The notes beneath the pieces were generated by a model. That model was not told the origin of the DNA. It did not search any database and saw nothing but the letters and a program-made list of their open reading frames with translations. The translations under genes and the position numbers were made by a program. Shown piece by piece: positions 3 through 14,109 of a stretch of DNA of 64,000 nt. How positions within the stretch are numbered: position 1 is the first letter of the stretch; the number at the start of each line of letters is the position of its first letter. The DNA is from Candidatus Moraniibacteriota bacterium (lineage in GTDB: Bacteria; Patescibacteriota; Minisyncoccia; Moranbacterales; UBA1568), in assembly GCA_030648835.1 (NCBI GenBank), contig JAUSGT010000002.1, positions 373,458 to 437,457 of the forward strand. The letters run 5' to 3'.

Positions 3-2018
3 ATCTACGAGCAAGACTTTAAATATAAGAGGCGCTTTTCTCAGAAAGTTGTGATTCCAAAAATATCTAAGGAATACTCATTATTTTGGAGTAGTGTAGT
101 AGGTAATTACCCTAAAGAGTTTAGGAATATTATTTTAGAGGAATATAAGTCAGCATTAGATATAGAGATTCCAACGTTGAAACCAAAAATTCTCAGTAGT
201 CTTTATAAGAATAACAAACTAACCCCTAGAGCAATCTCACGTTTTGAGCTAGATAATTATTCTTCAGCTGGGCTTTTTACTGACACTATTTTTTTTATGG
301 ATGCCACTAAGGGGTTGGACATAATAGATTTTTGGAACTTAAGAGCTACAGGAAGAAAAGTTGTCCCATTTCCTATCCAGTATTCGAAAGATAAAGAAAT
401 TCAGAAAATTGTTCGTGATTTTATAAATATGTCTTATGGTTCTTTAAAGCACAACCCTAAAATATTCAATCACGCATCTTTTATAAAGAGCCGTAGCCTG
501 GAGATGAAACAGATGGAGCAAGCTGTTAAAAGTTTAAAAGTTAGAAAGAAATCTTCTCCAAAAGGTGGGCTATATTTTTCATTGCAATGGTGGTACCCAA
601 GAATGTGGCAAGAAAATTATGTTGATTCTGATAACGTAATACCTGTCGAGGTTTATAATAGTACTCAGAGCATAGATGTAATAGATGAAGATGGAACAAT
701 CTCTTTGCCACCAGTCTTACCTAAGTTTCTTGGGGAAAATCAATCTCTTTTCAGAAGAAAAGTAGGATATGTAAATGAGATAAACATTACCCCTTATAGT
801 TTTGGTTCAAAAATGATTTCTCAAGTATTTCCAATGGGTAAGGAGAACACTTTAAGAGTTATTGATCCTTTGGGGATGCCTGAACAATGGAGAGTAGGGA
901 AAAAGTCTTTAATAAGAGAAGTCTCTTATCAGCATTCCCAGAGGTGGGCTGTTCCTGATTCTCAAGATATATTTTTTTCTTGGCTTAAGGATCTTGGTTT
1001 TAGCGACCTCAAACTTTCTCCCCCTGGTATTTTAGCTAAACAGATTTTTTTTCAGTTAGATGGTTGGCTTAGGATTTTTGCTATTAATGGCATTCTAGAA
1101 CTTTTTGATTCAATGAGTAGGGGGTCTCATAGTGAAGTTGGTATGGCTGTAGGGGCTGTGAAGTCAAAGATCGAACTAATGGGTCGTGATACACAGTTCT
1201 TGGATTTTTTAAATACAAAGAAGATATTTAAAATTGGTGCTAATATTCAGTGCCCGAAGTGTTTCCGTCATTCTTGGTACAGTCTTAGTGATCTAAAAGA
1301 AGAAACAATTTGTTTGAAGTGTCTTAATTCGTTTCCTACAATTTCAAGTATTAATAATAAATGCTGGTATTATAAAACAGCCGGACCTTTCAGTATAGGA
1401 AATCACGCAGAGGGAGCGTATTCTGTCTTGCTATGCTATGATTTTTTCGTAAATGTTATGCATCTGAAAACTAGCGTTGCGTTTAGTTTTAATTTTGAGA
1501 AAAACGGGGAAAAACTTGAAGCTGATTTGGGCTTGTTATGGCTTGATAGTCTTTTTGACAATGTTTCAAATAATACGTTATTCGCAGAGTGTAAGTCTTA
1601 TAACAATTTTGAACAAGGAGATATAGATAGGATGGCTCTTTTAGTTCAAAATTTTCCTGGGGCTGTAATAGTCTTTTCCACACTTAAAAACGAGCTTACT
1701 GTCAACGAGAAAAAGATGATTAAGAAACTTGCAAAAAAATGTAGGAAGTATCATAAAAATAATCTTCCTATAAATCCGCTGCTTGTGCTTACCTCTAATG
1801 AATTACTTTCATTACATCACCCACCGTATTGTTGGAGGGGGAATAGCAAACTTACAGAGAGAGAAAAAAGTAGTATACACTCTTTGTATGATATATGTAA
1901 TGCGAGCCAAAAAATTTATCTTGATCTACCTTCTTGGTATTCTGAATGGGATGAAGAGTGGAAAAAGAAATCTGCTGTGAGAAAAAAGAAGCTGAATGCA
2001 GAATATGTTTGTGAGTAA
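3..2018 (+). CDS. Large hypothetical protein (at least 655 aa, probably 5'-partial). Contains a C4 zinc ribbon (CPKC...CLKC). Lies in the AT-rich island.
   Basis: Frame-3 ORF is open from position 3; the ORF track start at 51 is a GTG. No upstream stop within the window. CxxC-x17-CxxC motif. No recognisable catalytic motif. Confidence 0.45.
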   Translation: MYEQDFKYKRRFSQKVVIPKISKEYSLFWSSVVGNYPKEFRNIILEEYKSALDIEIPTLKPKILSSLYKNNKLTPRAISRFELDNYSSAGLFTDTIFFMDATKGLDIIDFWNLRATGRKVVPFPIQYSKDKEIQKIVRDFINMSYGSLKHNPKIFNHASFIKSRSLEMKQMEQAVKSLKVRKKSSPKGGLYFSLQWWYPRMWQENYVDSDNVIPVEVYNSTQSIDVIDEDGTISLPPVLPKFLGENQSLFRRKVGYVNEINITPYSFGSKMISQVFPMGKENTLRVIDPLGMPEQWRVGKKSLIREVSYQHSQRWAVPDSQDIFFSWLKDLGFSDLKLSPPGILAKQIFFQLDGWLRIFAINGILELFDSMSRGSHSEVGMAVGAVKSKIELMGRDTQFLDFLNTKKIFKIGANIQCPKCFRHSWYSLSDLKEETICLKCLNSFPTISSINNKCWYYKTAGPFSIGNHAEGAYSVLLCYDFFVNVMHLKTSVAFSFNFEKNGEKLEADLGLLWLDSLFDNVSNNTLFAECKSYNNFEQGDIDRMALLVQNFPGAVIVFSTLKNELTVNEKKMIKKLAKKCRKYHKNNLPINPLLVLTSNELLSLHHPPYCWRGNSKLTEREKSSIHSLYDICNASQKIYLDLPSWYSEWDEEWKKKSAVRKKKLNAEYVCE

Positions 2019-2065
2019 AATCGGGACTCTGATAAAGTAGAGGTATTATTTTTTTACTACTGTTT

Positions 2066-2305
2066 ATGAGTAATCAAGAAAGAATTTATAAGTTATGTTT
2101 TTATTGTGAGCACCCCATTATAGAGAATGACAGATTATCAATTGGCTCTATAACTCATGCAGGACTGAAATATAATATCTCAAAGAGACACAGGGAGAAA
2201 ATAGCCTCAATTACTAATAGCGCAGCTTACGAATCGGATCTTATGCACTTACATTGTTATGATTCCGTTGCGTCAGAATTAGGGTTTGGTAATGGTATGT
2301 ATTGA
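2066..2305 (+). CDS. Small Cys-containing hypothetical protein (79 aa)
   Basis: ORF with CFYC motif. AT-rich island context. Confidence 0.3.
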   Translation: MSNQERIYKLCFYCEHPIIENDRLSIGSITHAGLKYNISKRHREKIASITNSAAYESDLMHLHCYDSVASELGFGNGMY

Positions 2306-2423
2306 AGAGGTTGAGACCACTATGTATATCAAAGGGAATTGTAGTAAATGTCACGAATACGGTAGTCTTGAACCAGACGATTCTTTTCGGAATGGTTTTT
2401 GTGAGGATTTTGATTTATAAAGT

Positions 2424-3230
2424 ATGAAAAAACAATTTACCATATTATCAATTATAGCTTTACTATTTTTGGGGAGCCTTGTTTTCGCTATCCCAACAGT
2501 ATCTTCTGCTGAATGTTGGATTTATGGATCGGCTGCAACGGAGGATTACTTAACGGGAGAGTGTAAATGCAGAGCGGGCTATATTATGAGTGATAGACAC
2601 TGCACAAGTGGGGCTACGGCGTGTCTTCTTAAAAATGGCGGATTTTCAACGTATAATGAATCGAAAGGTTCTTGTGAATGCCTTTTCGGCTATACGCTAG
2701 ATAACACTAATCGATGTGTTAAAAAACAAAATAATGTTTACTTTACATTAGAGGAATTAGATACGGGCAACAAGAAGGCGATAATTAGAAGTAACAGTGA
2801 TTTTAATTACTACTTAGTGATTTATAATACTGGTTGTTATGATCGTTCGTTTGAAAGGTATTTAGGAAAACAGATAGTTATAAATTTAGGAACGGATTAC
2901 TATTTGGATACTTTGGACAAAATAGTGTTACAAGATGACAATGAAACATGTGACATAATAAGTAGAGAAAAAGTTGATTCGAGTACAACTTTAAAAGAAG
3001 AAGGTGTGATAATCAAAAGAAGTTATCCATCAACAGTAGTTCCTGAAATTAAAAGAAAACAGGCTGCCATACCTGATACCAACAACAATCCAACAAAAAA
3101 TTCTTCAGTAGAAACTAATACAAATGAAAGTGGATTTAACCCATTTTTTGTTTTAGTTTTTATAATTCTTAGCGGAGGATTTGTCTGGATAATTTGGAAA
3201 TCAATGAAGAATAACATTGAAAGATTATGA
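2424..3230 (+). CDS. Secreted or surface-anchored Cys-rich protein with EGF-like CxC...C repeats (signal peptide plus C-terminal TM anchor)
   Basis: N-terminal signal peptide MKKQFTILSIIALLFLGSLVFAIPTVSSA. Repeated ECKCRAGY...C and SCECLFGY...C modules. C-terminal hydrophobic helix FFVLVFIILSGGFVWIIW. Stop overlaps the next start (ATGA). Confidence 0.6.
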   Translation: MKKQFTILSIIALLFLGSLVFAIPTVSSAECWIYGSAATEDYLTGECKCRAGYIMSDRHCTSGATACLLKNGGFSTYNESKGSCECLFGYTLDNTNRCVKKQNNVYFTLEELDTGNKKAIIRSNSDFNYYLVIYNTGCYDRSFERYLGKQIVINLGTDYYLDTLDKIVLQDDNETCDIISREKVDSSTTLKEEGVIIKRSYPSTVVPEIKRKQAAIPDTNNNPTKNSSVETNTNESGFNPFFVLVFIILSGGFVWIIWKSMKNNIERL

Positions 3231-4444
3231 AAAATAAAATATTCAGTTTAATCAAAGTTACCTCGCTGGTATTTTTAGTAATATTTATTGCACTAGTTAT
3301 TAATTATGCATTCCAATATTTCTGGATTTCTCCACGCTATTGGGGTGGCACAGTTACGCGATCAAACGAGAAAGTGGCAAATACTACGAAAAACTTTATT
3401 AACCTCTATGGATCTGAAAAATTTGCCGCGCTCAATCCTGCTCAAATCAAAAAAGATTATTCTGCGCTCGGCTATAATCTTTTTCTTGAGATAAGACGAA
3501 GTAATCAGGTTGTCGTACGTACTACCTATGCGATTTCTACTATCTTAGATGACCCAAAGACCCATTATACGATTGATTGTGCAATTCCCGGTGTGGGTGA
3601 AAGCTGCTCTATTTTAATTCTAGAGGATGTTAATTCTAAAGCACGTGATTTTAACGCAAATCATACCAATTGGTTGAAAAACTGGTTTATCGCCCCAAAA
3701 GATAATTTCGAAGATAAATATAATAACATTACATGGCCGTTTTTTGTAGCTTTGAGTAGCTCTTCATTGATTGCGACTATTATTCTTGGTTGGTATTTTT
3801 ATGCTAACAAGAAAAAAAGAATATTTCGGGAAAAAGAAGAAGAAAGTCAGAAACTTGAAGAACATATAATAGAGCTTCATCAGATTTTAAGTAATACAAA
3901 AGAGGAAGCTGAAACGGCGAGAGTTGAACTAGACAGGCTTAATTCAGACACAACAACAAACACACAAGAAAATGAGTCTGAAAAGCAGAGACTGCATGAA
4001 AGGGTTAATGAATTAGAAGCCGAGAAGAAAGAGGTAGATGAGGAGGTATTAGTATTTATTGACATTCGGGCAATAGAGAGAGCTATGCGCAATATAATTC
4101 ACAAAAAACTGTCTCAGAGATACCCCCATGGGAATTATTGGGATGTCGCAATTCCAAATGACATAAGAGAACGACTAAGGGATCGTTTAACTTGGCTTAA
4201 GGAGCAAGACAACAGAAAAAGGATTGATGAAACCTATTTCGGCGAGTGCAGAGATATTATAAGGTACAATTATGGTTTATTTGTGGGTATATTTGGGAGA
4301 AAAGATGACGCAATGTCGTATTTCAGAATACTGATTAATACCAGGAATGCACTAGCTCATGACAGAGAAAACAGTGATTTGAGATATATACCTAACGCCA
4401 TAGAATGGGCAAAAAGAAAACTGGAAATAAACAACGATGCATAG
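3227..4444 (+). CDS. Membrane-anchored (2 TM) coiled-coil protein with a C-terminal DUF4145/HEPN-like domain (Rx4H motif RNALAH). Putative RNase-type effector.
   Basis: TM helices near residues 10-35 and about 165-190. Charged coiled-coil (EEESQKLEEH...ELEAEKKEVDEE). C-terminus IDIRAIERAMRNIIHKKL ... FRILINTRNALAHD matches DUF4145/HEPN signatures. Translationally coupled to the flanking genes. Confidence 0.55.
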   Translation: MKNKIFSLIKVTSLVFLVIFIALVINYAFQYFWISPRYWGGTVTRSNEKVANTTKNFINLYGSEKFAALNPAQIKKDYSALGYNLFLEIRRSNQVVVRTTYAISTILDDPKTHYTIDCAIPGVGESCSILILEDVNSKARDFNANHTNWLKNWFIAPKDNFEDKYNNITWPFFVALSSSSLIATIILGWYFYANKKKRIFREKEEESQKLEEHIIELHQILSNTKEEAETARVELDRLNSDTTTNTQENESEKQRLHERVNELEAEKKEVDEEVLVFIDIRAIERAMRNIIHKKLSQRYPHGNYWDVAIPNDIRERLRDRLTWLKEQDNRKRIDETYFGECRDIIRYNYGLFVGIFGRKDDAMSYFRILINTRNALAHDRENSDLRYIPNAIEWAKRKLEINNDA

Positions 4445-5909
4445 GGAGATACTAACTTTTATGGAAAGTACACTTTTTATTACGCCGAGTAGACCACTTG
4501 ATGAAATAAGCCGGCTTATTGGCAATGGGCTAAAAAAGAACGGCCTTATCGAAAAAGGAAATCCGCGAAGAGCGAATACTCGTTTTAAATTATCTGAGAA
4601 TGATTACTTTGTAGGGTTTTCTTGGTGTTACGAAACTATTCCTGATAGTGTAGTAATCCTTCTGGAAATCTCAAAATACTATGAAGAAGAGGAGAGAAAG
4701 AAGGATACCCCATCTAAGTTAACCAAGCCTGAAATAATCAACTATGCCAAAAGCTTTAAGAAATATATTGAATCTGAACAACTGCCAATATCAGAGGTGA
4801 AAATAAAACAATTTAAATTATCGAAGTCTTTGTCTGTAGAATATGAACTGGGTAATAAAATTGTTTCGCCATCAAAGAGGGGGGCATTGCATAACCCATT
4901 TGAACTTAGAGCGTTGCCGGAATCAATTCGTGTATATTGGCCTGCGGGGTCTCTTAACGAAAGTGATCGGGCGTGTAGAATGCTTGCCGATAGTTTGATA
5001 AGATTCGGCGTTAGGGGGGCAAGAATGTTCCCAGAACTTTATAATAATCAAACGCTACCTTTACCGGATAATGATTCTTTTGAGTGTATAATTATTATTC
5101 CTAATATTGAGGATGAATTAGCAAAGCCACTTATTGTAGAATTAAAGAAACGACCCAGGGGCATACATATATTTGATTTTGATGATAATGGCAATCAATA
5201 CAAATTTGACAATTTGGCCGCTGGTATTTTATATAATAGTGGCAGTGAACTTTGGAGAGTTCATGGTTTGGATCAAAATAACTCCATATATGTTGGTATT
5301 GACTTAGGTCACGACCCCAAACTAAGAAAGTCTAAAATATGTATGACTTTTATTGACAAGAATGGTCGGGAGCTTTCTGAGCATAGGTATATTGCAGAGG
5401 ACTTACCTTTGAATGAAAAACAACAACTGATAGGTATTCTTACTGATAAGTTAGAAAAAATTCAAAAAGAAAATGGATTTGAAAACGTTATTATTCACAA
5501 AGATGGCCGAATTCTGGAAAATCACGATACGCTTTATTACACACTAAAACAAAAATTTGGAAGCGTCTCGCTTATTGAAGTAGTAAAGTCAAATTCAGCC
5601 TTTATTCTAGATCCAGAATCTAAAATGGGTGATATTTTTGATTTTGGAAATTTTATACTTTTACAAACGTTACCATTTAACCACCTTGGGAAATGTACTG
5701 AGCCTATAAAAATTAAGATACTGAAATCCGATTTAGATAGGATGTTTCTTATTGACAATGTATTTAAACTTTCGAAGGCTTTTTGCGGAGATTCATTATA
5801 CGCAGACAAGAAATTACCAATTACAACACATATTGCTGATCGATTCTCATCATTCCAAACAGGTAAGACGTTACAGTCGTTTAATATTGCGAAAAAGTGG
5901 ATAAAATAA
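4437..5909 (+). CDS. Short prokaryotic Argonaute (MID-PIWI, about 480-490 aa). PIWI motifs GIDLGHD, IIHKDGR, IEVVKS and SLYADKK are present.
   Basis: Motif-level match to Argonaute PIWI. GIDLGHD matches the GxDVxH beta-strand that carries the first catalytic Asp. VIIHKDGR matches IHRDGR. SLIEVVKSNSAFIL matches the VEVVKSGN segment. FILLQTLPF...GKCTEP matches FYLxSQ..GTxRP. SLYADKKL matches YYADxxA, which carries the last catalytic residue. A preceding Rossmann-like MID segment (CIIIIPN ... NQYKFDNLAAGILYNSGSELW) is present. An alternative start at 4461 has an AGGGAG RBS. Confidence 0.65.
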   Translation: MHREILTFMESTLFITPSRPLDEISRLIGNGLKKNGLIEKGNPRRANTRFKLSENDYFVGFSWCYETIPDSVVILLEISKYYEEEERKKDTPSKLTKPEIINYAKSFKKYIESEQLPISEVKIKQFKLSKSLSVEYELGNKIVSPSKRGALHNPFELRALPESIRVYWPAGSLNESDRACRMLADSLIRFGVRGARMFPELYNNQTLPLPDNDSFECIIIIPNIEDELAKPLIVELKKRPRGIHIFDFDDNGNQYKFDNLAAGILYNSGSELWRVHGLDQNNSIYVGIDLGHDPKLRKSKICMTFIDKNGRELSEHRYIAEDLPLNEKQQLIGILTDKLEKIQKENGFENVIIHKDGRILENHDTLYYTLKQKFGSVSLIEVVKSNSAFILDPESKMGDIFDFGNFILLQTLPFNHLGKCTEPIKIKILKSDLDRMFLIDNVFKLSKAFCGDSLYADKKLPITTHIADRFSSFQTGKTLQSFNIAKKWIK

Positions 5910-5956: not shown

Positions 5957-6463
5957 GTGAGACAGAAAAACATGGAAACAAAAGATCCTATTCAAAAAGA
6001 TTCAGGAAAAAAGTGGCCGAAAACACTGCTTAAATATTTGTTTGCCATAATCATCATTTTCGTATTGCTGTTTAGTTTGGTCGGTTCTTACGAAGATCTA
6101 CTTGATGTGTCCTTTTTGGTCTTCGTTCTTGCGGTGATTACCGTTATAGCACTTATAGCCGGGGGTTTGCTGACAGGGTATGAACATGTTAAGCCGATAG
6201 CAGATAAATTTGAGGACGAGAATGTATGGCAGTATATCAGAATGGCGATCATCAGATTATTGATTGGTGGGTTCATAATTTATTGGATGATTGGTGGCGA
6301 GGGATTTCTTAGTCTTGACAGCCTCGAAAATATCGTTCATAATCTTGGGAAATTTTCTCTCTGGATTTTTGCAATATATTTTGTTCTGGCCGGGCTAAAG
6401 AGTCTCTATTGGGTTATTCGAGAAGTAATAAAAAATTTAACGAGTGATGGAGACGAGGATTGA
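5957..6463 (+). CDS. Small 4-TM membrane protein, possibly part of the pAgo module
   Basis: Four hydrophobic helices. Acidic C-terminus. Begins 48 bp downstream of the pAgo gene. Confidence 0.5.
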   Translation: MRQKNMETKDPIQKDSGKKWPKTLLKYLFAIIIIFVLLFSLVGSYEDLLDVSFLVFVLAVITVIALIAGGLLTGYEHVKPIADKFEDENVWQYIRMAIIRLLIGGFIIYWMIGGEGFLSLDSLENIVHNLGKFSLWIFAIYFVLAGLKSLYWVIREVIKNLTSDGDED

Positions 6464-6478
6464 TTTCAAGAGATAAAG

Positions 6479-7420
6479 ATGAACCAGGATAATTTCGTTA
6501 AAATTGAAGGGTGTTTCAGACAAGCTAGAATCACTAGCGAGCTTGCGGATTCTTCGGTTGCAAAATATCGTGATTCAATTAAGAAATTCTTTTCTGTCAT
6601 TGGCAACAAAGATTTTGAATTACTGGTAATCGTTGACTTTGAGAACTTGATTCTAAAAATGCGGGATAATGGTGCGGGTAATTCCAGGATTGCCAACGTA
6701 ATTTCTGCTGTTAAGTGGCTTACTAAAAAACTTCAAGATGGGGGAAAAATACCAAAAACGCTTGATTTAGAGAAGGTAAAAAAACCGAAAATTGAAAGGA
6801 AGGAAGTTGAATATTTGAACGATCAAGAAATAAAAAGGCTCATTGACTGTATTTTAGACGATCTTTCAAAAGGGGAATTCATAAGGAAGGTGAGGATAAT
6901 GGCGCTTGTAGTGTTTTTACTAGAAAGCGGTGCAAGAATTGGCGAAGCCCTTTCAATCAAAATTGAAAAAATTGACTGGGATAACAATGAAATCCCCATT
7001 GTTGGAAAAGGGAAAAAACCGAGAACGTTGTTTTTCAGGGATCGTTCTAAATATTGGTTTCAAAAGTATTTATCCATAAGAAAAAGTGATAGCGAGTTTT
7101 TGTTTGTTACTCTCAGTGGCTTGGCTAAATGGTCACAAACAGACGTAGGGAGATCTTTTAGACGGTATAGGAACTTGTCCGGAATAAAGAAAAAGCTTGT
7201 TTTGCATACACTGAGGCATACTACTGCTACCCAACTATCATTTAAGGGCGCTCAATTTAACGAAATACAAGCCCTTTTGGGTCACGCTCGACTAGAAACC
7301 ACAGTAAAGTATTATATCGGCGCGGCAGGAAAACAGAGGGTCAAGAAAATGATGCAGGATAAATACTATGATTTCATTCCTGAATCAGTGTTGAAAGTTA
7401 ATAAATCAGTGAAGGCATAG
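6479..7420 (+). CDS. Tyrosine-type site-specific recombinase/integrase (XerC/XerD-like)
   Basis: SGARIGEAL (Arg box I). HTLRHTTATQL (HxxR). LLGHARLETTVKYY (catalytic Tyr region). Confidence 0.8.
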   Translation: MNQDNFVKIEGCFRQARITSELADSSVAKYRDSIKKFFSVIGNKDFELLVIVDFENLILKMRDNGAGNSRIANVISAVKWLTKKLQDGGKIPKTLDLEKVKKPKIERKEVEYLNDQEIKRLIDCILDDLSKGEFIRKVRIMALVVFLLESGARIGEALSIKIEKIDWDNNEIPIVGKGKKPRTLFFRDRSKYWFQKYLSIRKSDSEFLFVTLSGLAKWSQTDVGRSFRRYRNLSGIKKKLVLHTLRHTTATQLSFKGAQFNEIQALLGHARLETTVKYYIGAAGKQRVKKMMQDKYYDFIPESVLKVNKSVKA

Positions 7421-8462: not shown

Positions 8463-8475
8463 ATAGAGACACCAA

Positions 8476-8639
8476 GCTGTCTCATATGGTAAAATAAGAC
8501 AGGGTCTGTCCTGTGTCTCATTTGTCTCGTTTTACCCCCAAAACCGCGACCCGAGAGCCTCAATCCACTCGTCGGCCAAGACCTCCAAGAAATCCCTCAA
8601 CGGCTTGATTTCTCAAAGTTCTAGACCGATGACGCCCGC
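8476..8639. repeat. About 164 bp GC-rich intergenic repeat, copy 1. Contains the hairpin GGTAAAATaAGACA...TGTCTCGTTTTACC.
   Basis: Near-identical to 9891..10054. Its 3' half matches 13986..14080. Confidence 0.85.
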
Positions 8640-8861
8640 AGTGAACGTTAGTGAACGGAGGAGAGGAGGAAGCCAACTGCTTGGCTTCCGTGATGGATGA
8701 GAAAGGCGGAGCGATGTTTCGCGAGTACGCGAAACCGTGAGCCAGGGTCGTGGAAATTTATGAGCGTCGGCGAATAAATTATCCCTGACCGAATCCCTGC
8801 CTCTCTGTAGGCAGGTTTCCCTCTTCGCCAAAATTGAAAATCGGAATCGGAAGCTGAAAAT

Positions 8862-9842: not shown

Positions 9843-9890
9843 TCACATGAAAATGTACCTCTACGGAAACATCCAAAAGGGAGACATCCC

Positions 9891-10054
9891 GCTGTCCCAT
9901 ATGGTAAAATGAGACAAGGTCTGTCCTGTGTCTCATTTGTCTCGTTTTACCCCCAAAACCGCGACCCGAGAGCCTCAATCCACTCGTCGGCCAAGACCTC
10001 CAAGAAATCCCTCAACGGCTTGATTTCTCAAAGTTCTAGACCGATGACGCCCGC
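9891..10054. repeat. About 164 bp GC-rich intergenic repeat, copy 2
   Basis: Near-identical to 8476..8639 (a few substitutions). Confidence 0.85.
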
Positions 10055-10301
10055 TAAGATTATTTTTCACCCTTCTGGGTGTAAAATAGGCTTTGTTGAT
10101 TGGAAGGATGAGAAGGGCGTGAGTCGGATGCGAACAAGCGAGCATCCTGTGTGTAGCGCCCAGGCTCCGAGTCGGAGCGAGGAGGAATCCCTCCTTCTCC
10201 GCCCTCGCTCGCCGAAGCGAACCTTCGGCGTGACGAAGTCCGCTGTAGATACGTGAAAGTTTTCGAGGTTCCGGTTGATGATCTTTTGAAGAAATAAAAC
10301 T

Positions 10302-11288
10302 ATGAAAAAATTAATTGTACATAAAGTAAATATTTCTCATCAGCGTCTTGTTGAACTATCTAAACTAGCCGATCAGGCAAAGCCTTTTTACGATTGGGTT
10401 GAAAAGGTAGCAAAAAAAGTTACTGGATCGCACAGAAGTTTGAACGAGATAATTTTTCAGTCATCAAAAAAAGAAATTCATACCATAATTAAAAGTTGTT
10501 ATTCCAATGGAGCGGAAACAAAACCTTTTTTGTTTGATGGCGTTGGTAGAGTTTATCCTCACTTTAAGGCTTGTTTTTACTTTTTTGCTTGGATAGTTCG
10601 AGACGCTCCACAACAAAGACTTTCCCCCTTAATTAGTCGTATGCAAAAAGCCGACAAGGTTTCTAAAATTACGGCGGAAACAGATGCGCTTGTAAAATTA
10701 ATTTTTGAATACAAATCTGTAGTAAAAAGTTTTGAATGGCAAGCTGTGCGAGAAGTGATAATTGATAGGTTGGAGGGGTCTAGGCGAAGTATTCGCGGAC
10801 ATGCTTTAGAGGCGAGCGCGCGAACAAGCTTGGTTACCGCTATTCAAAATTATTATTCAATTCACGGAGATTACGGGAAATTTAAGAAAGTTGAAATTGC
10901 TGATAAGCAGATAAAAATAGGTAGGCACACTGTAGACGTTTCCGCTTTGCTCTATCCTAAAAATGAATCAGTTCCTATTCGACTGCTTATCCCAATAAAG
11001 ACAAGGGAGACCGAAGGCGGTGGTCATTCTCATATCTTCACTAGAGATGTAATTTCCGCGATTACTGATATTAAAGCCGAAAAGAAAAAAGATCATATTA
11101 TAGTTGTGATTGTTGCCGAAAATTGGTCTCCAAGAGAAATCCAGACAATAGATGATGCGATTGATTTGATTTTTCATTTCAATATGAGTCCGAATGCATT
11201 TGAGGGCTTTGACGAGAGCGCTCAAGTTACATTGAATCAGTATATTGAAAAAATATTTAGCGAATATGAAAAGCAAGCACGAAAATAA
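10302..11288 (+). CDS. Hypothetical protein, putative restriction endonuclease partner of the downstream methyltransferase
   Basis: Overlaps the MTase gene by 44 nt in the same operon. No nuclease motif could be confirmed by eye. Confidence 0.35.
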   Translation: MKKLIVHKVNISHQRLVELSKLADQAKPFYDWVEKVAKKVTGSHRSLNEIIFQSSKKEIHTIIKSCYSNGAETKPFLFDGVGRVYPHFKACFYFFAWIVRDAPQQRLSPLISRMQKADKVSKITAETDALVKLIFEYKSVVKSFEWQAVREVIIDRLEGSRRSIRGHALEASARTSLVTAIQNYYSIHGDYGKFKKVEIADKQIKIGRHTVDVSALLYPKNESVPIRLLIPIKTRETEGGGHSHIFTRDVISAITDIKAEKKKDHIIVVIVAENWSPREIQTIDDAIDLIFHFNMSPNAFEGFDESAQVTLNQYIEKIFSEYEKQARK

Positions 11289-12150
11289 AATACTACTTGG
11301 TGATGTACGGGAAGTGATAAAAATCTTTCCCGATCTGCACTTTCAAGCTATTATCACTAGCCCGCCATATTTTGGTCATAGAAAATATTCAGAAAAAAGT
11401 TCTAGTGGCGAGGTGGGTCGGGAATCAAACCCAGAACAGTATATTGAGAATATTAGGCAAATTTTCAACGGGCTTAGGCCAAAATTAAAAGACAATGGAT
11501 TATTGTGGTTAAACCTTGGCGATACCTACAGAGAGAAAACCCTACTTGGTATTCCGTGGCGGACTGCTCTGGCTTTGCAATCTGACGGCTGGATACTCCG
11601 AAGTGATATTATTTGGCGAAAAACAAATGCTATGCCGTCGTCCATCAAAGATCGACCTACTACTGATCATGAGTATGTATTTATGTTTTCCAAAACTCCA
11701 GAATATCTTTATTACGCGGACGCAATTAGAGAGCCACATGTTACGTTTTCTGATAAATCCAAAATGAAGGGTGGAAGAAATCATTTTGGGAAACGAGACG
11801 GTACACCGGAAAACGGAAAGAATGGCGGCAACTCAAATCTTCACAATGGAAGGTGGGATCAAGCTTTTCACCCAAATGGAAGGAATAAAAGAACTGTTTG
11901 GGATATTTCTCTAGGCAAGTTTAGAGATACGCATTTTGCGGTTTATCCTGAAAAGCTTGTAGAAACTTGTATTCTTGCATCTACAAAAGAGGGCGATTTG
12001 GTTTTTGACCCATTTATGGGTTCTGGTACAACAGCATTGGTGGCGTGTAAGCTAGGGAGAAATTTTACTGGTGTTGAGTTAGTCGAAAAATATAAAGACA
12101 TGGCGGAAAAAAGAGTCTCGCCTTATCTTAAACAAGCAAAATTAGTATGA
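11245..12150 (+). CDS. DNA methyltransferase, beta-class N4-cytosine/N6-adenine (motif IV SPPY before motif I FMGSGTT)
   Basis: IITSPPYFG (D/S-PPY). DPFMGSGTTALVA (FxGxG SAM-binding motif) near the C-terminus. Confidence 0.85.
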   Translation: MKKYLANMKSKHENKILLGDVREVIKIFPDLHFQAIITSPPYFGHRKYSEKSSSGEVGRESNPEQYIENIRQIFNGLRPKLKDNGLLWLNLGDTYREKTLLGIPWRTALALQSDGWILRSDIIWRKTNAMPSSIKDRPTTDHEYVFMFSKTPEYLYYADAIREPHVTFSDKSKMKGGRNHFGKRDGTPENGKNGGNSNLHNGRWDQAFHPNGRNKRTVWDISLGKFRDTHFAVYPEKLVETCILASTKEGDLVFDPFMGSGTTALVACKLGRNFTGVELVEKYKDMAEKRVSPYLKQAKLV

Positions 12151-13208
12151 ATGAAAGACAACAGATAATCAAAGAAATTGAGGATTTGCGAGGTTCGCGC
12201 GTTATAACCTACATAACGAGCGATAGACCCGGAATAATCTCAATGATTGATCCAATGGATTTACGAGAGATTTTTGATCATCTGAAAGATATCCCCAAAG
12301 ATACAAAAATTGATTTATACATTTACAGTCGCGGTGGAAATTCCGTAACTGCGTGGGCTCTCGTAAATCTTATTCGCGAACACACTAAAGATTTTAATGT
12401 TCTTGTACCTTATCGCGCACACAGTTGTGCTACTGCTATTGCAATTGGGTCAAATGAAATAGTTATGGGACGAATGGGAGAGTTAGGACCAATAGACCCA
12501 ACACTTTCTGCAATAGTTGATAATAAAAAAGTTGATGTCTCAACCGAAGATTTATCTAGCTACATTGCTTTTTTGAAAGAAAAGTTTGGTATCAATCGTC
12601 AAAAGCATACGATTCAAGCATTTAGCCAACTTGCCGAAAACGTAAAACCTCTTTTGCTTGGTAGAGCGTACCGCTCGTATCTCAAAGCAACTGATGACGC
12701 GATAAAACTTTTGCGACTACATTTGAGTGACGAAAGGAAAATCAAAAGCATTGCTGAACATCTTGTTGAGAAACTTTATGCCCACGATCATATTATCTCT
12801 CGTAGGGAAGCTAAAGAAAAAATTGGCCTGAACGTTCTTTGCGCTGAAGGAGATTTGGAAAAGAAAATGTGGGAGTTATACCTCAAATACGAGGATATGC
12901 TAAAATTAAAAGAACCATACAAGGATGAACCAACGACAGGAAACGATCCAAGAATTTTGCCGGTTACTGTCGTTGAAAGTATAACTATGACTAGCAAAAA
13001 GAACGTTCGACAATTCATTAAGGAAGTCAGCTTGCCACAGCAAAATATGGCGGCGATGCCTGTTATTGTTGGTGATAAGCCCGCGCTCATGTTCCCAAAC
13101 GGACAAGCTATTCAGATTGTAACAGAGGGGCAAACTGTTGTTTTAGATCAGAAGTTTTTTGCTAAAACGGAAACTATAGTTTGGGAACAAGAGGTAGTAA
13201 CGGAATAA
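12147..13208 (+). CDS. ClpP/SppA-superfamily (S14/S49-like) serine peptidase with a C-terminal extension
   Basis: IDLYIYSRGGNSVTAWALVNLIRE ... YRAHSCATAIAIGSNEIVMG aligns with the ClpP core (DIYLYINSPGG ... GQAASMG). ATGA overlap with the MTase stop. Confidence 0.5.
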   Translation: MNERQQIIKEIEDLRGSRVITYITSDRPGIISMIDPMDLREIFDHLKDIPKDTKIDLYIYSRGGNSVTAWALVNLIREHTKDFNVLVPYRAHSCATAIAIGSNEIVMGRMGELGPIDPTLSAIVDNKKVDVSTEDLSSYIAFLKEKFGINRQKHTIQAFSQLAENVKPLLLGRAYRSYLKATDDAIKLLRLHLSDERKIKSIAEHLVEKLYAHDHIISRREAKEKIGLNVLCAEGDLEKKMWELYLKYEDMLKLKEPYKDEPTTGNDPRILPVTVVESITMTSKKNVRQFIKEVSLPQQNMAAMPVIVGDKPALMFPNGQAIQIVTEGQTVVLDQKFFAKTETIVWEQEVVTE

Positions 13209-13598
13209 TGCGCGTAGCGATTTCCCTGCGGTCTTGCCGCAGGAACCACTAAGGAAAGTTTGAAAACCTTGGTTTTCAAGTTAGACTATAGTGGCAAAGC
13301 CTCGGGTCATACCCTGTGGTCTTGGCATAGGGTTGTTGATTTTTGTTGCTTGAAATTCGCCAAAAGAAAACAGCGGAGCAAATGGAAAATTCCTCCCCAA
13401 ACCCCTCCTCCTCCGCTTGCGACATCCGAATTCAAAAACAAATGAGCGTACGAGGCAGTCTCGAGCCACCACGCGCTCCGTGCGTGCGATTAGTCGGCAT
13501 CATGGTTGCTTTCAAAATACATTCGAACTTTGTATAATACACACCGCATCAAACTCATAGTATCGAGTAGACTTGAGCTTTAATAATAAGAAAACAAT

Positions 13599-13985: not shown

Positions 13986-14080
13986 TGCGACCCGACCTTT
14001 CCAATCCGTTCGTCGGCCAAGACCCCTAAGAAATCCCTCAACGGCTTGATTTCTCAAAGTTCTAGACCGATGACGCCTGC
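13986..14080. repeat. Partial (3' half) copy of the 164 bp repeat, copy 3
   Basis: Matches the 3' roughly 95 bp of the copies at 8476 and 9891 with a few substitutions. Confidence 0.8.
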
Positions 14081-14109
14081 ACCGAGTATTAAGTATCGGA
14101 TATACCCAT

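What the first reader, a model, noticed from the sequence alone, without database searches (positions are those of the whole stretch)
10302..13208. Type II R-M pair translationally fused to a ClpP/SppA-like serine peptidase
A 328 aa unknown protein (putative REase), a beta-class N4C/N6A DNA MTase (SPPY plus FMGSGTT), and a 353 aa ClpP-fold peptidase with a C-terminal extension overlap each other by 44 nt and 4 nt, so they form a single operon. A dedicated peptidase coupled to an R-M unit is unusual. It could be a protease-gated toxin/antitoxin-like control of the endonuclease, a phage-derived prohead-protease remnant, or a new three-component defence module.
Basis: partly seen in the sequence, partly recalled or inferred. 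Interest (0 to 1): 0.55.

Follow-up and report, generated by a model that had tools for sequence, protein, structure and literature searches.

The report
NheI-type R-M plus portable SDH protease
A known NheI-type restriction-modification gene pair has been joined, gene end to gene start, to a separately mobile ClpP-fold serine protease, and relatives of that protease repeatedly sit beside or inside unrelated restriction and other anti-phage systems, which makes it a candidate new defence-associated gene and not a dedicated part of this R-M pair.

Summary
The three ORFs are real, co-directional and overlap stop-to-start. All three are under strong purifying selection (dN/dS 0.04-0.07).

- **The 328-aa protein is not unknown.** It is a NheI-family Type II endonuclease (PADLOC REase_II, E 3e-84; 68% identical to a protein NCBI names NheIR).
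- **The 301/294-aa protein** is its beta-class PF01555 methyltransferase.
- **The 353-aa protein** is an SDH-type (PF01972) ClpP-fold serine protease with invariant Ser93/Asp117/His213.

The block is not a fixed three-component system. DNA homology to other contigs breaks exactly at the ATGA overlap. The same R-M pair (R 97% identical) occurs elsewhere without the protease.

Close relatives of the protease (72-96% identical) lie next to at least five unrelated R-M systems, a Lamassu-like system and a MORC-like ATPase. Distant relatives (43%) are embedded between mod and res of Type III R-M operons. An E. coli relative is a lone prophage moron. Methyltransferase genes cluster at positions ±1-2 from the protease and are absent further away.

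Best reading: this is a composite operon of a known R-M cassette, which has lost its controller gene, and a portable protease module associated with defence systems. The protease's mechanism is unproven. I favour an autonomous or guardian-type defence protease.

The parts
10256..10297 (+). Remnant of the last ~14 codons of a controller (C, HTH) gene. In related NheI-type cassettes this gene precedes R.
   Evidence: tblastn of the L092 C protein matches residues 54-67 at 71% identity. DNA homology to L092-L096 begins at 10274. A full C gene is present in L092-L096 and L143.
10302..11288 (+). NheI-family Type II restriction endonuclease, 328 aa. The GCTAGC specificity is inferred.
   Evidence: PADLOC REase_II PDLC03531, E 2.8e-84, full length. 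68% identity to 'NheIR' of Planktothrix tepida. dN/dS 0.04 against L092. The AF2 model is weak (pLDDT 74.5) and its top, non-significant hits are PD-(D/E)xK REases.
11266..12150 (+). Beta-class N4C/N6A DNA methyltransferase. It is 294 aa from the ATG at 11266, or 301 aa if the TTG at 11245 is used.
   Evidence: PF01555 E 7e-54. PADLOC MTase_II PDLC03387 E 4.5e-90. SPPY lies upstream of FMGSGTT. The start is set by homology with the 294-aa calls in L092-96 and L142. dN/dS 0.05.
12147..13208 (+). SDH-type (PF01972) ClpP-fold serine protease, 353 aa, with an all-beta C-terminal domain (~269-350). It is an independently mobile module.
   Evidence: PF01972 73.7 bits, above the 31.3 cut-off. S93, D117 and H213 are invariant. 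AF2 pLDDT 88.3, pTM 0.86. Fold matches to ClpP, SppA and 1510-N and to giant-virus SDH proteinases. The homology block starts at 12146. dN/dS 0.06-0.07.
12147..12150 (+). ATGA stop/start overlap. This is the junction between the R-M module and the protease module.
   Evidence: blastn: R-M homology (90%, L092) ends at 12150 and protease homology (84-89%: L007, L097-99) starts at 12146. Junction alignment A2. The three-way alignment shows no breakpoint inside M.
13311..13343 (+). Terminator-like hairpin followed by a T-run, the probable end of the operon.
   Evidence: Consensus scan only.
9881..10060 (+). Direct repeat copy 2, upstream boundary of the R-M/protease/128-aa block.
   Evidence: 97% identical over 174 nt to 8466-8639. 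Identical 50-nt core at 10002-10051.
13987..14081 (+). Direct repeat copy 3 (core only), downstream boundary of the block.
   Evidence: About 89% identical over 97 nt to copies 1 and 2. Identical 50-nt core at 14028-14077.

Best explanation
The block is a composite operon built from two modules that circulate independently among Patescibacteria-like (CPR) genomes.

Module 1 is a classical NheI-family Type IIP R-M cassette. The beta-class methyltransferase marks the recognition site (GCTAGC by inference) and the endonuclease cuts unmarked DNA. This copy has lost the HTH controller gene that precedes R in its closest relatives.

Module 2 is an SDH-type ClpP-fold serine protease gene. Its start codon is set into the stop codon of M (ATGA), so it is co-transcribed and probably translationally coupled with M.

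The protease is not specific to this R-M. It is a portable companion gene that is repeatedly placed at the edge of, or inside, unrelated R-M and other defence operons. In E. coli it occurs alone as a prophage moron.

The most likely role, which is an inference, is a cytoplasmic defence-type protease that works autonomously or as a second-line 'guardian' next to R-M systems. It would be made together with the R-M proteins, stay latent, and be triggered during phage infection to cleave a phage or host target.

Shown: gene identities, the module boundaries, the recurrent association, the intact active-site residues, and purifying selection. Inferred: the GCTAGC specificity, co-transcription, and any anti-phage or guardian activity.
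For: Identity of the parts.

Module boundaries:
- Window 10274-12150 is 90% identical to L092-96 and that homology stops at the M stop codon.
- Protease homology starts at 12146.

The R-M occurs without the protease:
- L092-96: C-R-M, then a 176-aa gene, SMODS and GIY-YIG.
- L142: Planktothrix, R-M only.
- L143: C-R-M plus a 1053-aa gene.

Protease homologues at 72-96% identity lie beside different partners:
- TdeIII-like R + Dam + beta M (L098, gap +3 nt).
- DUF4145 + M + TdeIII R, then a serine recombinase (L007).
- M + HinfI/TdeIII R in a housekeeping context (L087).
- Dcm + HNH + Vsr downstream of the protease, between murC and murB (L090).
- Type III mod + res helicase (L146).
- A Lamassu/ABC-3C-like trio with an integrase (L004).
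- A MORC-like GHKL ATPase (L011/L102).

Distant homologues (43% identity) form mod-protease-small ORF-res operons that are conserved at 57-79% identity.

Position control: PF01555-like MTase ORFs were found in 9 of 276 genes at ±1-2 and in 0 of 392 further away in 96 distant loci. In close loci the counts were 4 of 37 and 0 of 63.

Other frequent neighbours are MazF toxins, integrases and Uma2.

E. coli: the homologue is in 47 of 5426 genomes. In all three contexts inspected, one phage-plasmid and two chromosomal prophages, it lies between Q and the holin on the opposite strand. The phage-plasmid also carries a separate HK97 prohead protease.

Active site and fold. Selection.

GCTAGC is absent from the 64 kb window against 11.8 expected by composition.
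Against: - There is no experimental or literature evidence for any function of PF01972 proteins.
- PADLOC v2 has no model for the family.
- In the wider family most immediate neighbours are unrelated housekeeping genes. Only about 6% of loci have an adjacent MTase, so the link is an enrichment and not a rule.
- Two close-clade loci show no obvious defence gene (L097: LexA and an 80-aa ORF; L099: a 117-aa ORF and TspO).
- The tight coupling to M, and the loss of the C gene here, would also fit a restriction-control role.
- The GCTAGC depletion is not significant once general CTAG avoidance is modelled (1.6 expected).
- Gene neighbourhoods come from metagenomic contigs with crude ORF calls.
Confidence: 0.6

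Rival explanations
1. Generic restriction-control protease. The protease degrades or delays endonucleases (or Res subunits) when the chromosome is under-methylated, easing establishment of a newly acquired R-M or protecting against self-restriction. It would be a built-in equivalent of ClpXP-dependent restriction alleviation. In this locus it might replace the lost C protein.
For: - It lies directly downstream of, and overlaps or abuts, the MTase or R-M genes in W, L098, L007, L087 and L146, and sits between mod and res in L042, L060 and L067.
- MTase ORFs are enriched at ±1.
- The C gene is lost in the window but present in the protease-less relatives L092-96 and L143.
- ClpXP degradation of HsdR during establishment is an established precedent (PMC12707154 section 25; PMC4231737).
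Against: - The partner endonucleases are non-homologous (NheI-type, TdeIII/HinfI-type, HNH, Type III Res), so a common recognition mechanism is hard to see.
- The protease also accompanies non-R-M systems (Lamassu-like, MORC-like).
- It stands alone in E. coli prophages with no adjacent REase in the three regions inspected.
- The C-gene correlation rests on a single case. L142 lacks both the C gene and the protease.
Confidence: 0.15
2. Co-location without shared function. The protease is an ordinary accessory or stress protease of mobile islands, and R-M and other defence cassettes simply accumulate in the same islands or hotspots. The ATGA junction would be an accident of compact CPR genomes.
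For: - Most neighbours in the wider family are unrelated genes. HSP20 (6 of 142) is as frequent as MTases.
- Integrases or recombinases are nearby in W, L004 and L007.
- CPR genomes are gene-dense with frequent 4-nt overlaps. For example, M overlaps the unrelated 176-aa gene by 4 nt in L092.
Against: - The adjacency is very local (±1-2 genes, none beyond) and on the same strand.
- The mod-protease-res order is conserved across about 40% sequence divergence.
- The protease changes chromosomal position together with its defence neighbours: murC/murB, gatA/pyrD, yceG/gpsA.
Confidence: 0.15
3. A dedicated three-component R-M-protease defence system. The protease would be an obligatory, co-evolved partner of this endonuclease and methyltransferase.
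For: Overlapping co-directional genes with a single terminator-like site after the third gene. All three genes are under purifying selection.
Against: - No other locus combines this R-M with this protease.
- R-M relatives at 97% and 82% identity, and the Planktothrix relative, all lack it.
- The protease's nearest relatives (95-96% identity) carry other partners.
- The homology blocks end exactly at the gene junction.
Confidence: 0.06
4. A remnant of a phage head-maturation (prohead) protease.
For: Weak NCBIfam matches to ClpP-related head-maturation protease models: NF045542 at 43 bits and NF045540 at 28.7 bits.
Against: - Both scores are far below their cut-offs (120 and 475).
- There are no capsid, portal or terminase genes in the neighbourhood.
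- There are only 3 distant hits in 2.9 million viral contigs and one partial hit in 50,697 phage genomes.
- The structure matches phage Clp-like proteases poorly (TM about 0.3), compared with SDH proteinases at TM 0.5-0.65.
- The gene is intact and under purifying selection.
Confidence: 0.02

Closest known systems
NheI restriction-modification system (Type IIP, GCTAGC)
   Same: The endonuclease is 68% identical over its full length to a protein named NheIR and matches the corresponding REBASE-derived PADLOC model. A beta-class PF01555 methyltransferase lies immediately downstream, and the same R-then-M order is seen in four contexts.
   Different: The controller (C) gene of its nearest relatives is reduced to about 14 codons. 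A protease gene is set into the M stop codon. Specificity and activity are untested.
SDH family Clp-fold serine proteinases (Pfam PF01972, NCBIfam NF047768; formerly 'serine dehydrogenase proteinase')
   Same: It scores above Pfam's gathering threshold, has invariant Ser/Asp/His residues, and has a ClpP-like fold. An E. coli protein that PGAP gives this name aligns with the same catalytic residues.
   Different: It is far below the NCBIfam equivalog cut-off (78.6 against 250 bits). It carries a roughly 90-aa all-beta C-terminal domain found in only about 8 of 3648 family clusters. It lacks the roughly 71-aa downstream partner ORF typical of much of the family.
PrrC anticodon nuclease embedded in the EcoprrI Type IC hsd locus (an R-M 'guardian')
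   Same: It is an unrelated effector gene placed inside or at the end of an R-M operon and co-expressed with it. Distant homologues sit between mod and res, much as prrC is embedded within the EcoprrI hsd locus.
   Different: The effector here is a protease, not an RNase. Its partners are many unrelated R-M types and also non-R-M systems. No evidence exists for latency, for binding to R-M proteins, or for activation by anti-restriction proteins.
ClpXP-dependent restriction alleviation of Type IA/IB enzymes
   Same: A ClpP-fold protease is functionally connected with control of restriction.
   Different: ClpXP is a housekeeping, ATPase-dependent machine that acts on translocating HsdR. Here the protease is encoded in the R-M operon, no ATPase partner is seen, and the R-M in the window is Type II.
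Protease or protease-like components of other defence systems (Lit, BrxL of BREX, Lamassu protease effectors)
   Same: A predicted protease is encoded with methylation-based or other anti-phage systems.
   Different: The folds and families are different (Lit is a metalloprotease, BrxL has a Lon-like domain), and there is no sequence relationship.

Membership tests
Type II R-M, NheI family | Endonuclease homologous to the characterised or REBASE-listed enzyme over its full length | tested here: met
   PADLOC REase_II PDLC03531, E 2.8e-84, residues 5-319 of 328. 68% identity, 99% coverage, to 'NheIR' P0190. The name is the source's own and was not verified here.
Type II R-M, NheI family | Adjacent cognate DNA methyltransferase with catalytic and AdoMet motifs | tested here: met
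   PF01555 E 7e-54. SPPY (motif IV) precedes FMGSGTT (motif I). The same R-M pairing is seen in L092-96, L142 and L143.
Type II R-M, NheI family | Recognisable nuclease catalytic fold | tested here: inconclusive
   AF2 pLDDT 74.5, pTM 0.49. No Foldseek hit below E 0.02. The top weak hits are PD-(D/E)xK REases (BbvCI, MspJI, AspBHI, PaqCI). Invariant D212, K233, E236 and E238 are candidate catalytic residues.
Type II R-M, NheI family | Cleavage and methylation at GCTAGC | not testable with these tools
   Indirect only. GCTAGC occurs 0 times in 64 kb (11.8 expected by composition, 1.6 by an order-4 Markov model).
C-protein-controlled R-M | Intact HTH controller gene upstream of R | tested here: not met
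   Only the last ~14 codons remain at 10256-10297. The gene is intact in L092-96 and L143.
SDH-type ClpP-fold serine proteinase (PF01972) | Profile match above the curated threshold | tested here: met
   PF01972 73.7 bits against a 31.3 cut-off. The NCBIfam NF047768 equivalog threshold is not reached (78.6 against 250), so this is a divergent subfamily.
SDH-type ClpP-fold serine proteinase (PF01972) | Conserved Ser, Asp and His in that order | tested here: met
   S93, D117 and H213 are invariant in 40 diverse homologues, and also in the E. coli and Type III-embedded homologues. That these three form the triad is taken from the family's name and description.
SDH-type ClpP-fold serine proteinase (PF01972) | ClpP/crotonase-like fold | tested here: met
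   Foldseek against PDB hits SppA, ClpP1P2 and 1510-N at E about 1e-4, TMt 0.5-0.63. BFVD 'serine dehydrogenase proteinase' hits reach E 4.6e-12.
SDH-type ClpP-fold serine proteinase (PF01972) | Proteolytic activity | not testable with these tools
ClpP (ATP-dependent Clp protease proteolytic subunit) | PF00574 match above threshold with the Ser-His-Asp arrangement | tested here: not met
   PF00574 14.9 bits, below 20.2. I infer from memory of the ClpP sequence, not from an alignment made here, that the window's GPIDP segment occupies the place of ClpP's His motif.
SppA / peptidase S49 | S49 profile match with a Ser-Lys dyad | tested here: not met
   No S49 family is listed at E<=0.1 in Pfam or NCBIfam. 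There is only fold-level similarity to SppA.
ClpP-related phage head-maturation protease | Profile match above threshold and adjacency to capsid or portal genes | tested here: not met
   NF045542 43 bits, below 120. No structural phage genes are nearby. In an E. coli phage-plasmid the homologue coexists with a separate HK97 prohead protease.
Known anti-phage systems in PADLOC v2.0.0 | Protease matches a model of a known or candidate defence protein | tested here: not met
   Only a chance-level Cmr5 match, E 0.013.
R-M 'guardian' effectors (PrrC-like logic) | Effector gene embedded in or co-transcribed with an R-M operon | tested here: met
   In the window it is the last gene, overlapping M. 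In L042, L056/60 and L067 it lies between mod and res.
R-M 'guardian' effectors (PrrC-like logic) | Latent effector held by the R-M complex and activated when restriction is inhibited | not testable with these tools
   This needs biochemistry and phage assays.
Integron cassette array (considered for the three direct repeats) | Integron-type integrase with attC-bounded cassettes | tested here: not met
   The integrase at 6479-7420 is Xer-like. TIGR02249 scores 64 bits against a 265 cut-off. I saw no R'/R'' core motifs by eye, one 'cassette' would hold housekeeping yceG, and the other is 4 kb with four genes.

The most novel reading that the evidence does not exclude
SDH-type ClpP-fold proteases (about 3,600 sequence clusters across bacteria, archaea and giant viruses) may be an unrecognised family of anti-phage or R-M 'guardian' effectors. 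Many carry a conserved ~71-aa partner protein. They plug into R-M operons of Types II and III and into other defence systems, and they ride as morons on E. coli prophages. The window would show one such module freshly joined to an NheI-type R-M that has lost its transcriptional controller.
Probability: 0.35. Interest if true: 0.7.

Novelty: new variant of a known kind. Interest (0 to 1): 0.5.

Why it matters
The R-M pair itself is ordinary. The value lies in the third gene. This is a sizeable, uncharacterised protease family with no published function. It shows a tight, statistically supported and phylogenetically repeated association with DNA methyltransferases and restriction systems, including a conserved mod-protease-res operon.

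If the family proves to be a defence or restriction-control factor, it would add a new protease-based layer to R-M biology. That layer would be comparable in logic to PrrC or to ClpXP-dependent restriction alleviation.

The E. coli prophage homologue makes the idea directly testable in a model organism. The case also illustrates how defence operons in CPR genomes are assembled by exchanging whole genes exactly at stop/start overlaps.

Tried and rejected
1. **Recombination inside the MTase 3' end as the swap point.** blastn extended the L098 homology into M. The three-way alignment shows that the window's M follows the NheI-type M (L092) to its stop codon and resembles L098 only at conserved motifs. 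Rejected.
2. **The C-terminal beta domain of the window clade as a fused copy of the ~71-aa partner protein.** Motif resemblance was seen by eye. The HMM search found no match and hhalign gave a probability of 0.3%. Rejected.
3. **Integron-like array for the three direct repeats.** The integrase is Xer-like, far below the integron-integrase cut-offs. Not supported. The nature of the repeats is still open.
4. **The repeat or the flanking GC-rich spacers as a known RNA.** Only a sub-threshold RtT match, 25 bits against 45, E 0.14.
5. **Strain-level presence or absence of the block.** Exact-protein look-ups for YceG, GpsA and the protease returned only short contigs of one sample, broken at the repeats, or nothing.
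6. **Literature on PF01972, DUF114, SDH family or ClpP-like proteases with R-M.** Nothing relevant. The 'DUF114' hits were DUF1145 and DUF1149.
7. **Solved structures by sequence for R and the protease.** None.
8. **The downstream 128-aa and 203-aa ORFs and the upstream 259-aa ORF.** No family hits and no conservation with the protease elsewhere.
11. **A dN/dS value for L087.** Discarded because I used a start coordinate out of frame with the called gene.


Full report
**Observation**

Three + strand ORFs occupy 10302-11288, 11245-12150 and 12147-13208. They are separate reading frames (0, 1, 0), so nothing is fused. M's stop overlaps the protease start as ATGA.

The R/M overlap is 44 nt only if the TTG at 11245 is used. 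Gene calls on near-identical relatives begin M at the equivalent of the ATG at 11266 (294 aa), which gives a 23-nt overlap. A terminator-like hairpin with a T-run follows only after the third gene (13311-13333).

The block lies in a stretch of lower G+C, 0.39-0.40 against about 0.47 for most of the window.

**What the three genes are**

- **The 328-aa protein.** It has no Pfam domain. It matches PADLOC's REBASE-derived REase_II model PDLC03531 end to end (E 2.8e-84). It has 629 homologues, most 65-70% identical across phyla, including one that NCBI names NheIR in Planktothrix tepida (68% identity).
- **Its fold.** There is no solved relative. An AF2 model from 20 sequences is only moderate (pLDDT 74.5, pTM 0.49) and gives no significant Foldseek match. 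The best weak hits are all PD-(D/E)xK restriction nucleases, and D212, K233, E236 and E238 are invariant.
- **The second protein.** It is a PF01555 methyltransferase (E 7e-54) with SPPY upstream of FMGSGTT, which is the beta-class order. From general knowledge of these enzymes, SPPY suggests an N4-cytosine methyltransferase.
- **The third protein.** It matches PF01972, the 'ClpP-like SDH-type serine proteinase' (73.7 bits against a 31.3 cut-off). It is below the cut-offs of ClpP (PF00574), of the NCBIfam SDH equivalog (78.6 against 250) and of the ClpP-related head-maturation proteases (43 against 120).
- **Its active site and structure.** In an alignment of 40 homologues down to 31% identity, S93, D117 and H213 are invariant. 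They are also invariant in the E. coli and Type III-embedded homologues. The AF2 model is confident (pLDDT 88.3, pTM 0.86). It has a ClpP/SppA/1510-N-like core and an all-beta C-terminal domain at about 269-350.
- **Selection.** All three genes are under strong purifying selection: dN/dS is 0.04 for R, 0.05 for M and 0.06-0.07 for the protease.
- **Recognition site.** GCTAGC does not occur in the 64 kb window and is the most depleted palindromic hexamer. CTAG itself is depleted about four-fold, so the order-4 Markov expectation is only 1.6. This is consistent with an active NheI-type system but is not proof.

**The block is a mosaic of two modules**

blastn against fetched relatives shows two homology blocks with sharp edges. 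Window 10274-12150 is 90% identical to contigs L092-L096, and that homology ends at the M stop codon. Protease homology (84-90% DNA identity to L007, L097-L099 and L011/L102) begins at 12146. A three-way alignment shows no breakpoint inside M.

At the junction, the 3' end of M (AAATTAGTATGA) resembles the sequence that precedes the protease start elsewhere (AAT..TATGA).

In L092-L096 the R-M pair (R 97% identical) is preceded by a 66-aa HTH controller gene. It is followed, again with a 4-nt overlap, by an unrelated 176-aa gene, a SMODS gene and a GIY-YIG gene, with no protease. Only the last ~14 codons of the controller gene survive in the window (10256-10297).

Two further NheI-type R-M loci also lack the protease. 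One is the Planktothrix chromosome and the other is L143, which has a C gene and a 1053-aa gene.

**Where the protease occurs**

The nearest relatives are in Candidatus Saccharibacteria and Kaiserbacteria MAGs, followed by Omnitrophota (48-49%) and many bacteria and archaea. The window therefore probably comes from a Patescibacteria-like genome.

Across close homologues (72-96% identity), only the protease gene is shared. I found the following distinct contexts.

- NheI-type R-M in the window.
- TdeIII-like R + Dam + beta M, followed 3 nt later by the protease (L098).
- DUF4145 + M + TdeIII R, followed 3 nt later by the protease and then a large serine recombinase (L007).
- The related M + HinfI/TdeIII R among gatA and pyrD housekeeping genes (L087).
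- murC, then the protease, then Dcm + HNH + Vsr + a zinc-finger protein, then murB (L090).
- Type III mod + res helicase, followed 10 nt later by the protease and then a Schlafen/AlbA_2 gene (L146).
- A tyrosine integrase and a Lamassu/ABC-3C-like trio, followed 39 nt later by the protease (L004).
- A MORC-like GHKL ATPase (L011/L102).
- An unknown 322-aa protein (L001).
- Two loci without obvious defence genes (L097, L099).

So five unrelated R-M types and two other defence-type systems flank essentially the same protease, and its chromosomal position changes with them.

**The wider family**

phmmer over 1.84 billion representatives finds 3648 clusters at E<=1e-3. Only about eight of the 150 best-scoring clusters listed match through the C-terminal domain.

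In 96 distinct loci with 34-49% identity, the commonest immediate neighbour families were as follows.

| Pfam family | Members (of 142 neighbours) |
|---|---|
| N6_N4_Mtase | 6 (at least 5 match Type III Mod models) |
| HSP20 | 6 |
| PemK/MazF | 5 |
| Phage integrase | 3 |
| Uma2 | 2 |
| rve | 2 |
| ResIII | 2 |

All other families listed among the 25 most frequent were single, mostly housekeeping genes, apart from the two DapB domains (3 members each) and DUF212 and Phage_int_SAM_1 (2 each).

Three loci carry mod (667-681 aa), then the protease at +3 nt or with a 4-nt overlap, then a small ORF, then res (ResIII plus an endonuclease domain, 848-857 aa). These are L042, L056/L060 and L067. Their mod, protease and res genes are 57-79% identical between loci, so this is a conserved operon type.

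As an internal control, I counted PF01555-like ORFs by position relative to the protease.

| Position from protease | Distant loci | Close loci |
|---|---|---|
| ±1 | 7/154 | 2/21 |
| ±2 | 2/122 | 2/16 |
| ±3-4 | 0/195 | 0/27 |
| ≥5 | 0/197 | 0/36 |

My rough hypergeometric estimates are about 3e-4 for the distant loci and about 0.02 for the close loci.

At least 45 loci also carry a conserved ~71-aa ORF directly downstream, with the motif PFG…Y.EP.TTN…IEI.F.G..Y.VPKTTGG. The window clade lacks it, and its own C-terminal domain is not homologous to it.

**Cultured organisms and viruses**

The only close look was possible in E. coli. A 33%-identical homologue, named by PGAP 'SDH family Clp fold serine proteinase', is present in 47 of 5426 complete genomes. 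In all three contexts inspected, one phage-plasmid and two chromosomal lambdoid prophages, it is a single gene on the opposite strand between the Q antiterminator and the holin. This slot is, from general knowledge, a typical moron position. The phage-plasmid also carries its own HK97 prohead protease.

Phage genome and viral contig collections hold almost no relatives. The best viral structural matches are 'serine dehydrogenase proteinase' paralogues of giant viruses. Phage prohead proteases match much more weakly.

**Interpretation**

The comparative data rule out a fixed three-gene system and a prohead-protease remnant. They do show a real, repeated and very local association between this protease family and R-M or defence genes.

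I therefore read the locus as a known R-M cassette joined to a portable protease module associated with defence systems.

For the protease's role I favour an autonomous or guardian-type defence function, for three reasons:

- It accompanies non-homologous endonucleases and also non-R-M systems.
- It stands alone in prophages.
- When embedded between mod and res, it resembles the way prrC sits in the EcoprrI locus (PMC12707154, section 73).

A generic restriction-control role, analogous to ClpXP-dependent alleviation (PMC12707154 section 25; PMC4231737), is the main alternative. It is hinted at by the tight coupling to methyltransferase genes and by the loss of the controller gene here. Pure co-location in islands cannot be excluded.

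None of these roles has experimental support. No paper in the searchable library mentions a function for the family, and PADLOC v2 has no model for it.

**Surroundings**

Three direct repeats share an identical 50-nt core (8587, 10002, 14028) and form a long imperfect hairpin. They bracket yceG and the R-M/protease/128-aa segment. They do not occur in the other fetched loci or in viral contigs.

Short-read contigs from one sample (SRR13727527) break inside the repeats. The neighbouring integrase is Xer-like, not an integron integrase. Whether the repeats mark insertion boundaries is unresolved.

**Verdict**

The R-M is a new member of a known family. The protease-R-M association is, as far as I could find, undescribed, and I rate the finding as a new variant of a known kind, namely an accessory effector plugged into R-M operons. 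Interest is moderate (0.5), driven by the family-wide pattern and its testability in E. coli, not by this locus alone.

Noticed in passing
window 8466-8645, 9881-10060, 13987-14081: Three direct repeats. Copies 1 and 2 are 97% identical over 174 nt, and all three share an identical 50-nt core and a long imperfect hairpin. They flank yceG and the R-M/protease/128-aa segment. They are absent from the rest of the window, from related loci and from viral contigs. Short-read contigs of sample SRR13727527 break inside them. Their nature is unknown (att duplication, cassette boundary or lineage-specific terminator).
   Followed up: partly
window 51-5909 (and 5957-7420): Four co-directional, partly overlapping ORFs (655, 268, 405 and 490 aa) in a low-GC (0.35) stretch with no Pfam match. 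They are followed by a 168-aa membrane-like ORF and a Xer-like tyrosine integrase. This may be the cargo of an integrated element.
   Followed up: partly
L021, L024, L025, L031, L060 and at least 40 other loci, directly downstream of the protease gene: A conserved ~71-aa ORF (motif PFG…Y.EP.TTN…IEI.F.G..Y.VPKTTGG) directly follows or overlaps the 3' end of distant SDH protease genes. This suggests a two-gene module in which the small protein is a substrate, inhibitor or partner. The window clade lacks it.
   Followed up: partly
L042:2-4027, L056:5979-11923, L060:1994-7938, L067:301-6179: A conserved Type III R-M operon with the SDH protease, and usually the small ORF, inserted between mod and res. 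All junctions are tight (+3 nt to a 4-nt overlap).
   Followed up: partly
L138:6992-7987 (E. coli plasmid NZ_CP081794), L140 and L141:5001-5996: An E. coli SDH-family protease gene is a solitary, opposite-strand insert between the Q antiterminator and the holin of lambdoid prophages. It is present in 47 of 5426 complete genomes, which makes it an experimentally tractable homologue.
   Followed up: partly
Foldseek BFVD hits: Giant viruses (Mimivirus-like, Klosneuvirinae, Marseillevirus, Hyperionvirus) encode several 'serine dehydrogenase proteinase' paralogues. These are the closest viral structures to the window's protease.
   Followed up: no
L092:277-4186 (also L093-L096): The nearest NheI-type cassette (C-R-M) is followed, with 4-nt overlaps, by a 176-aa unknown gene, a SMODS nucleotidyltransferase and a GIY-YIG nuclease. 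This is another example of defence genes chained at stop/start overlaps.
   Followed up: no
window 10061-10255 and 8646-8861: GC-rich, ORF-poor spacers follow repeat copies 2 and 1. They are weakly similar to each other. There is only a sub-threshold RtT match (25 bits, E 0.14) at 10087-10204.
   Followed up: partly
whole window: CTAG is about four-fold under-represented (55 observed, 241 expected by composition). GCTAGC, ACTAGT and CCTAGG are among the rarest palindromic hexamers.
   Followed up: partly
L087:7067-8135: DNA homology to the window's protease starts 2 nt after the upstream REase stop codon, but the gene is called only from 7164 (323 aa). This may be a 5' frameshift or an alternative start in this copy. 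The same contig has a GyrB with an intein domain.
   Followed up: no
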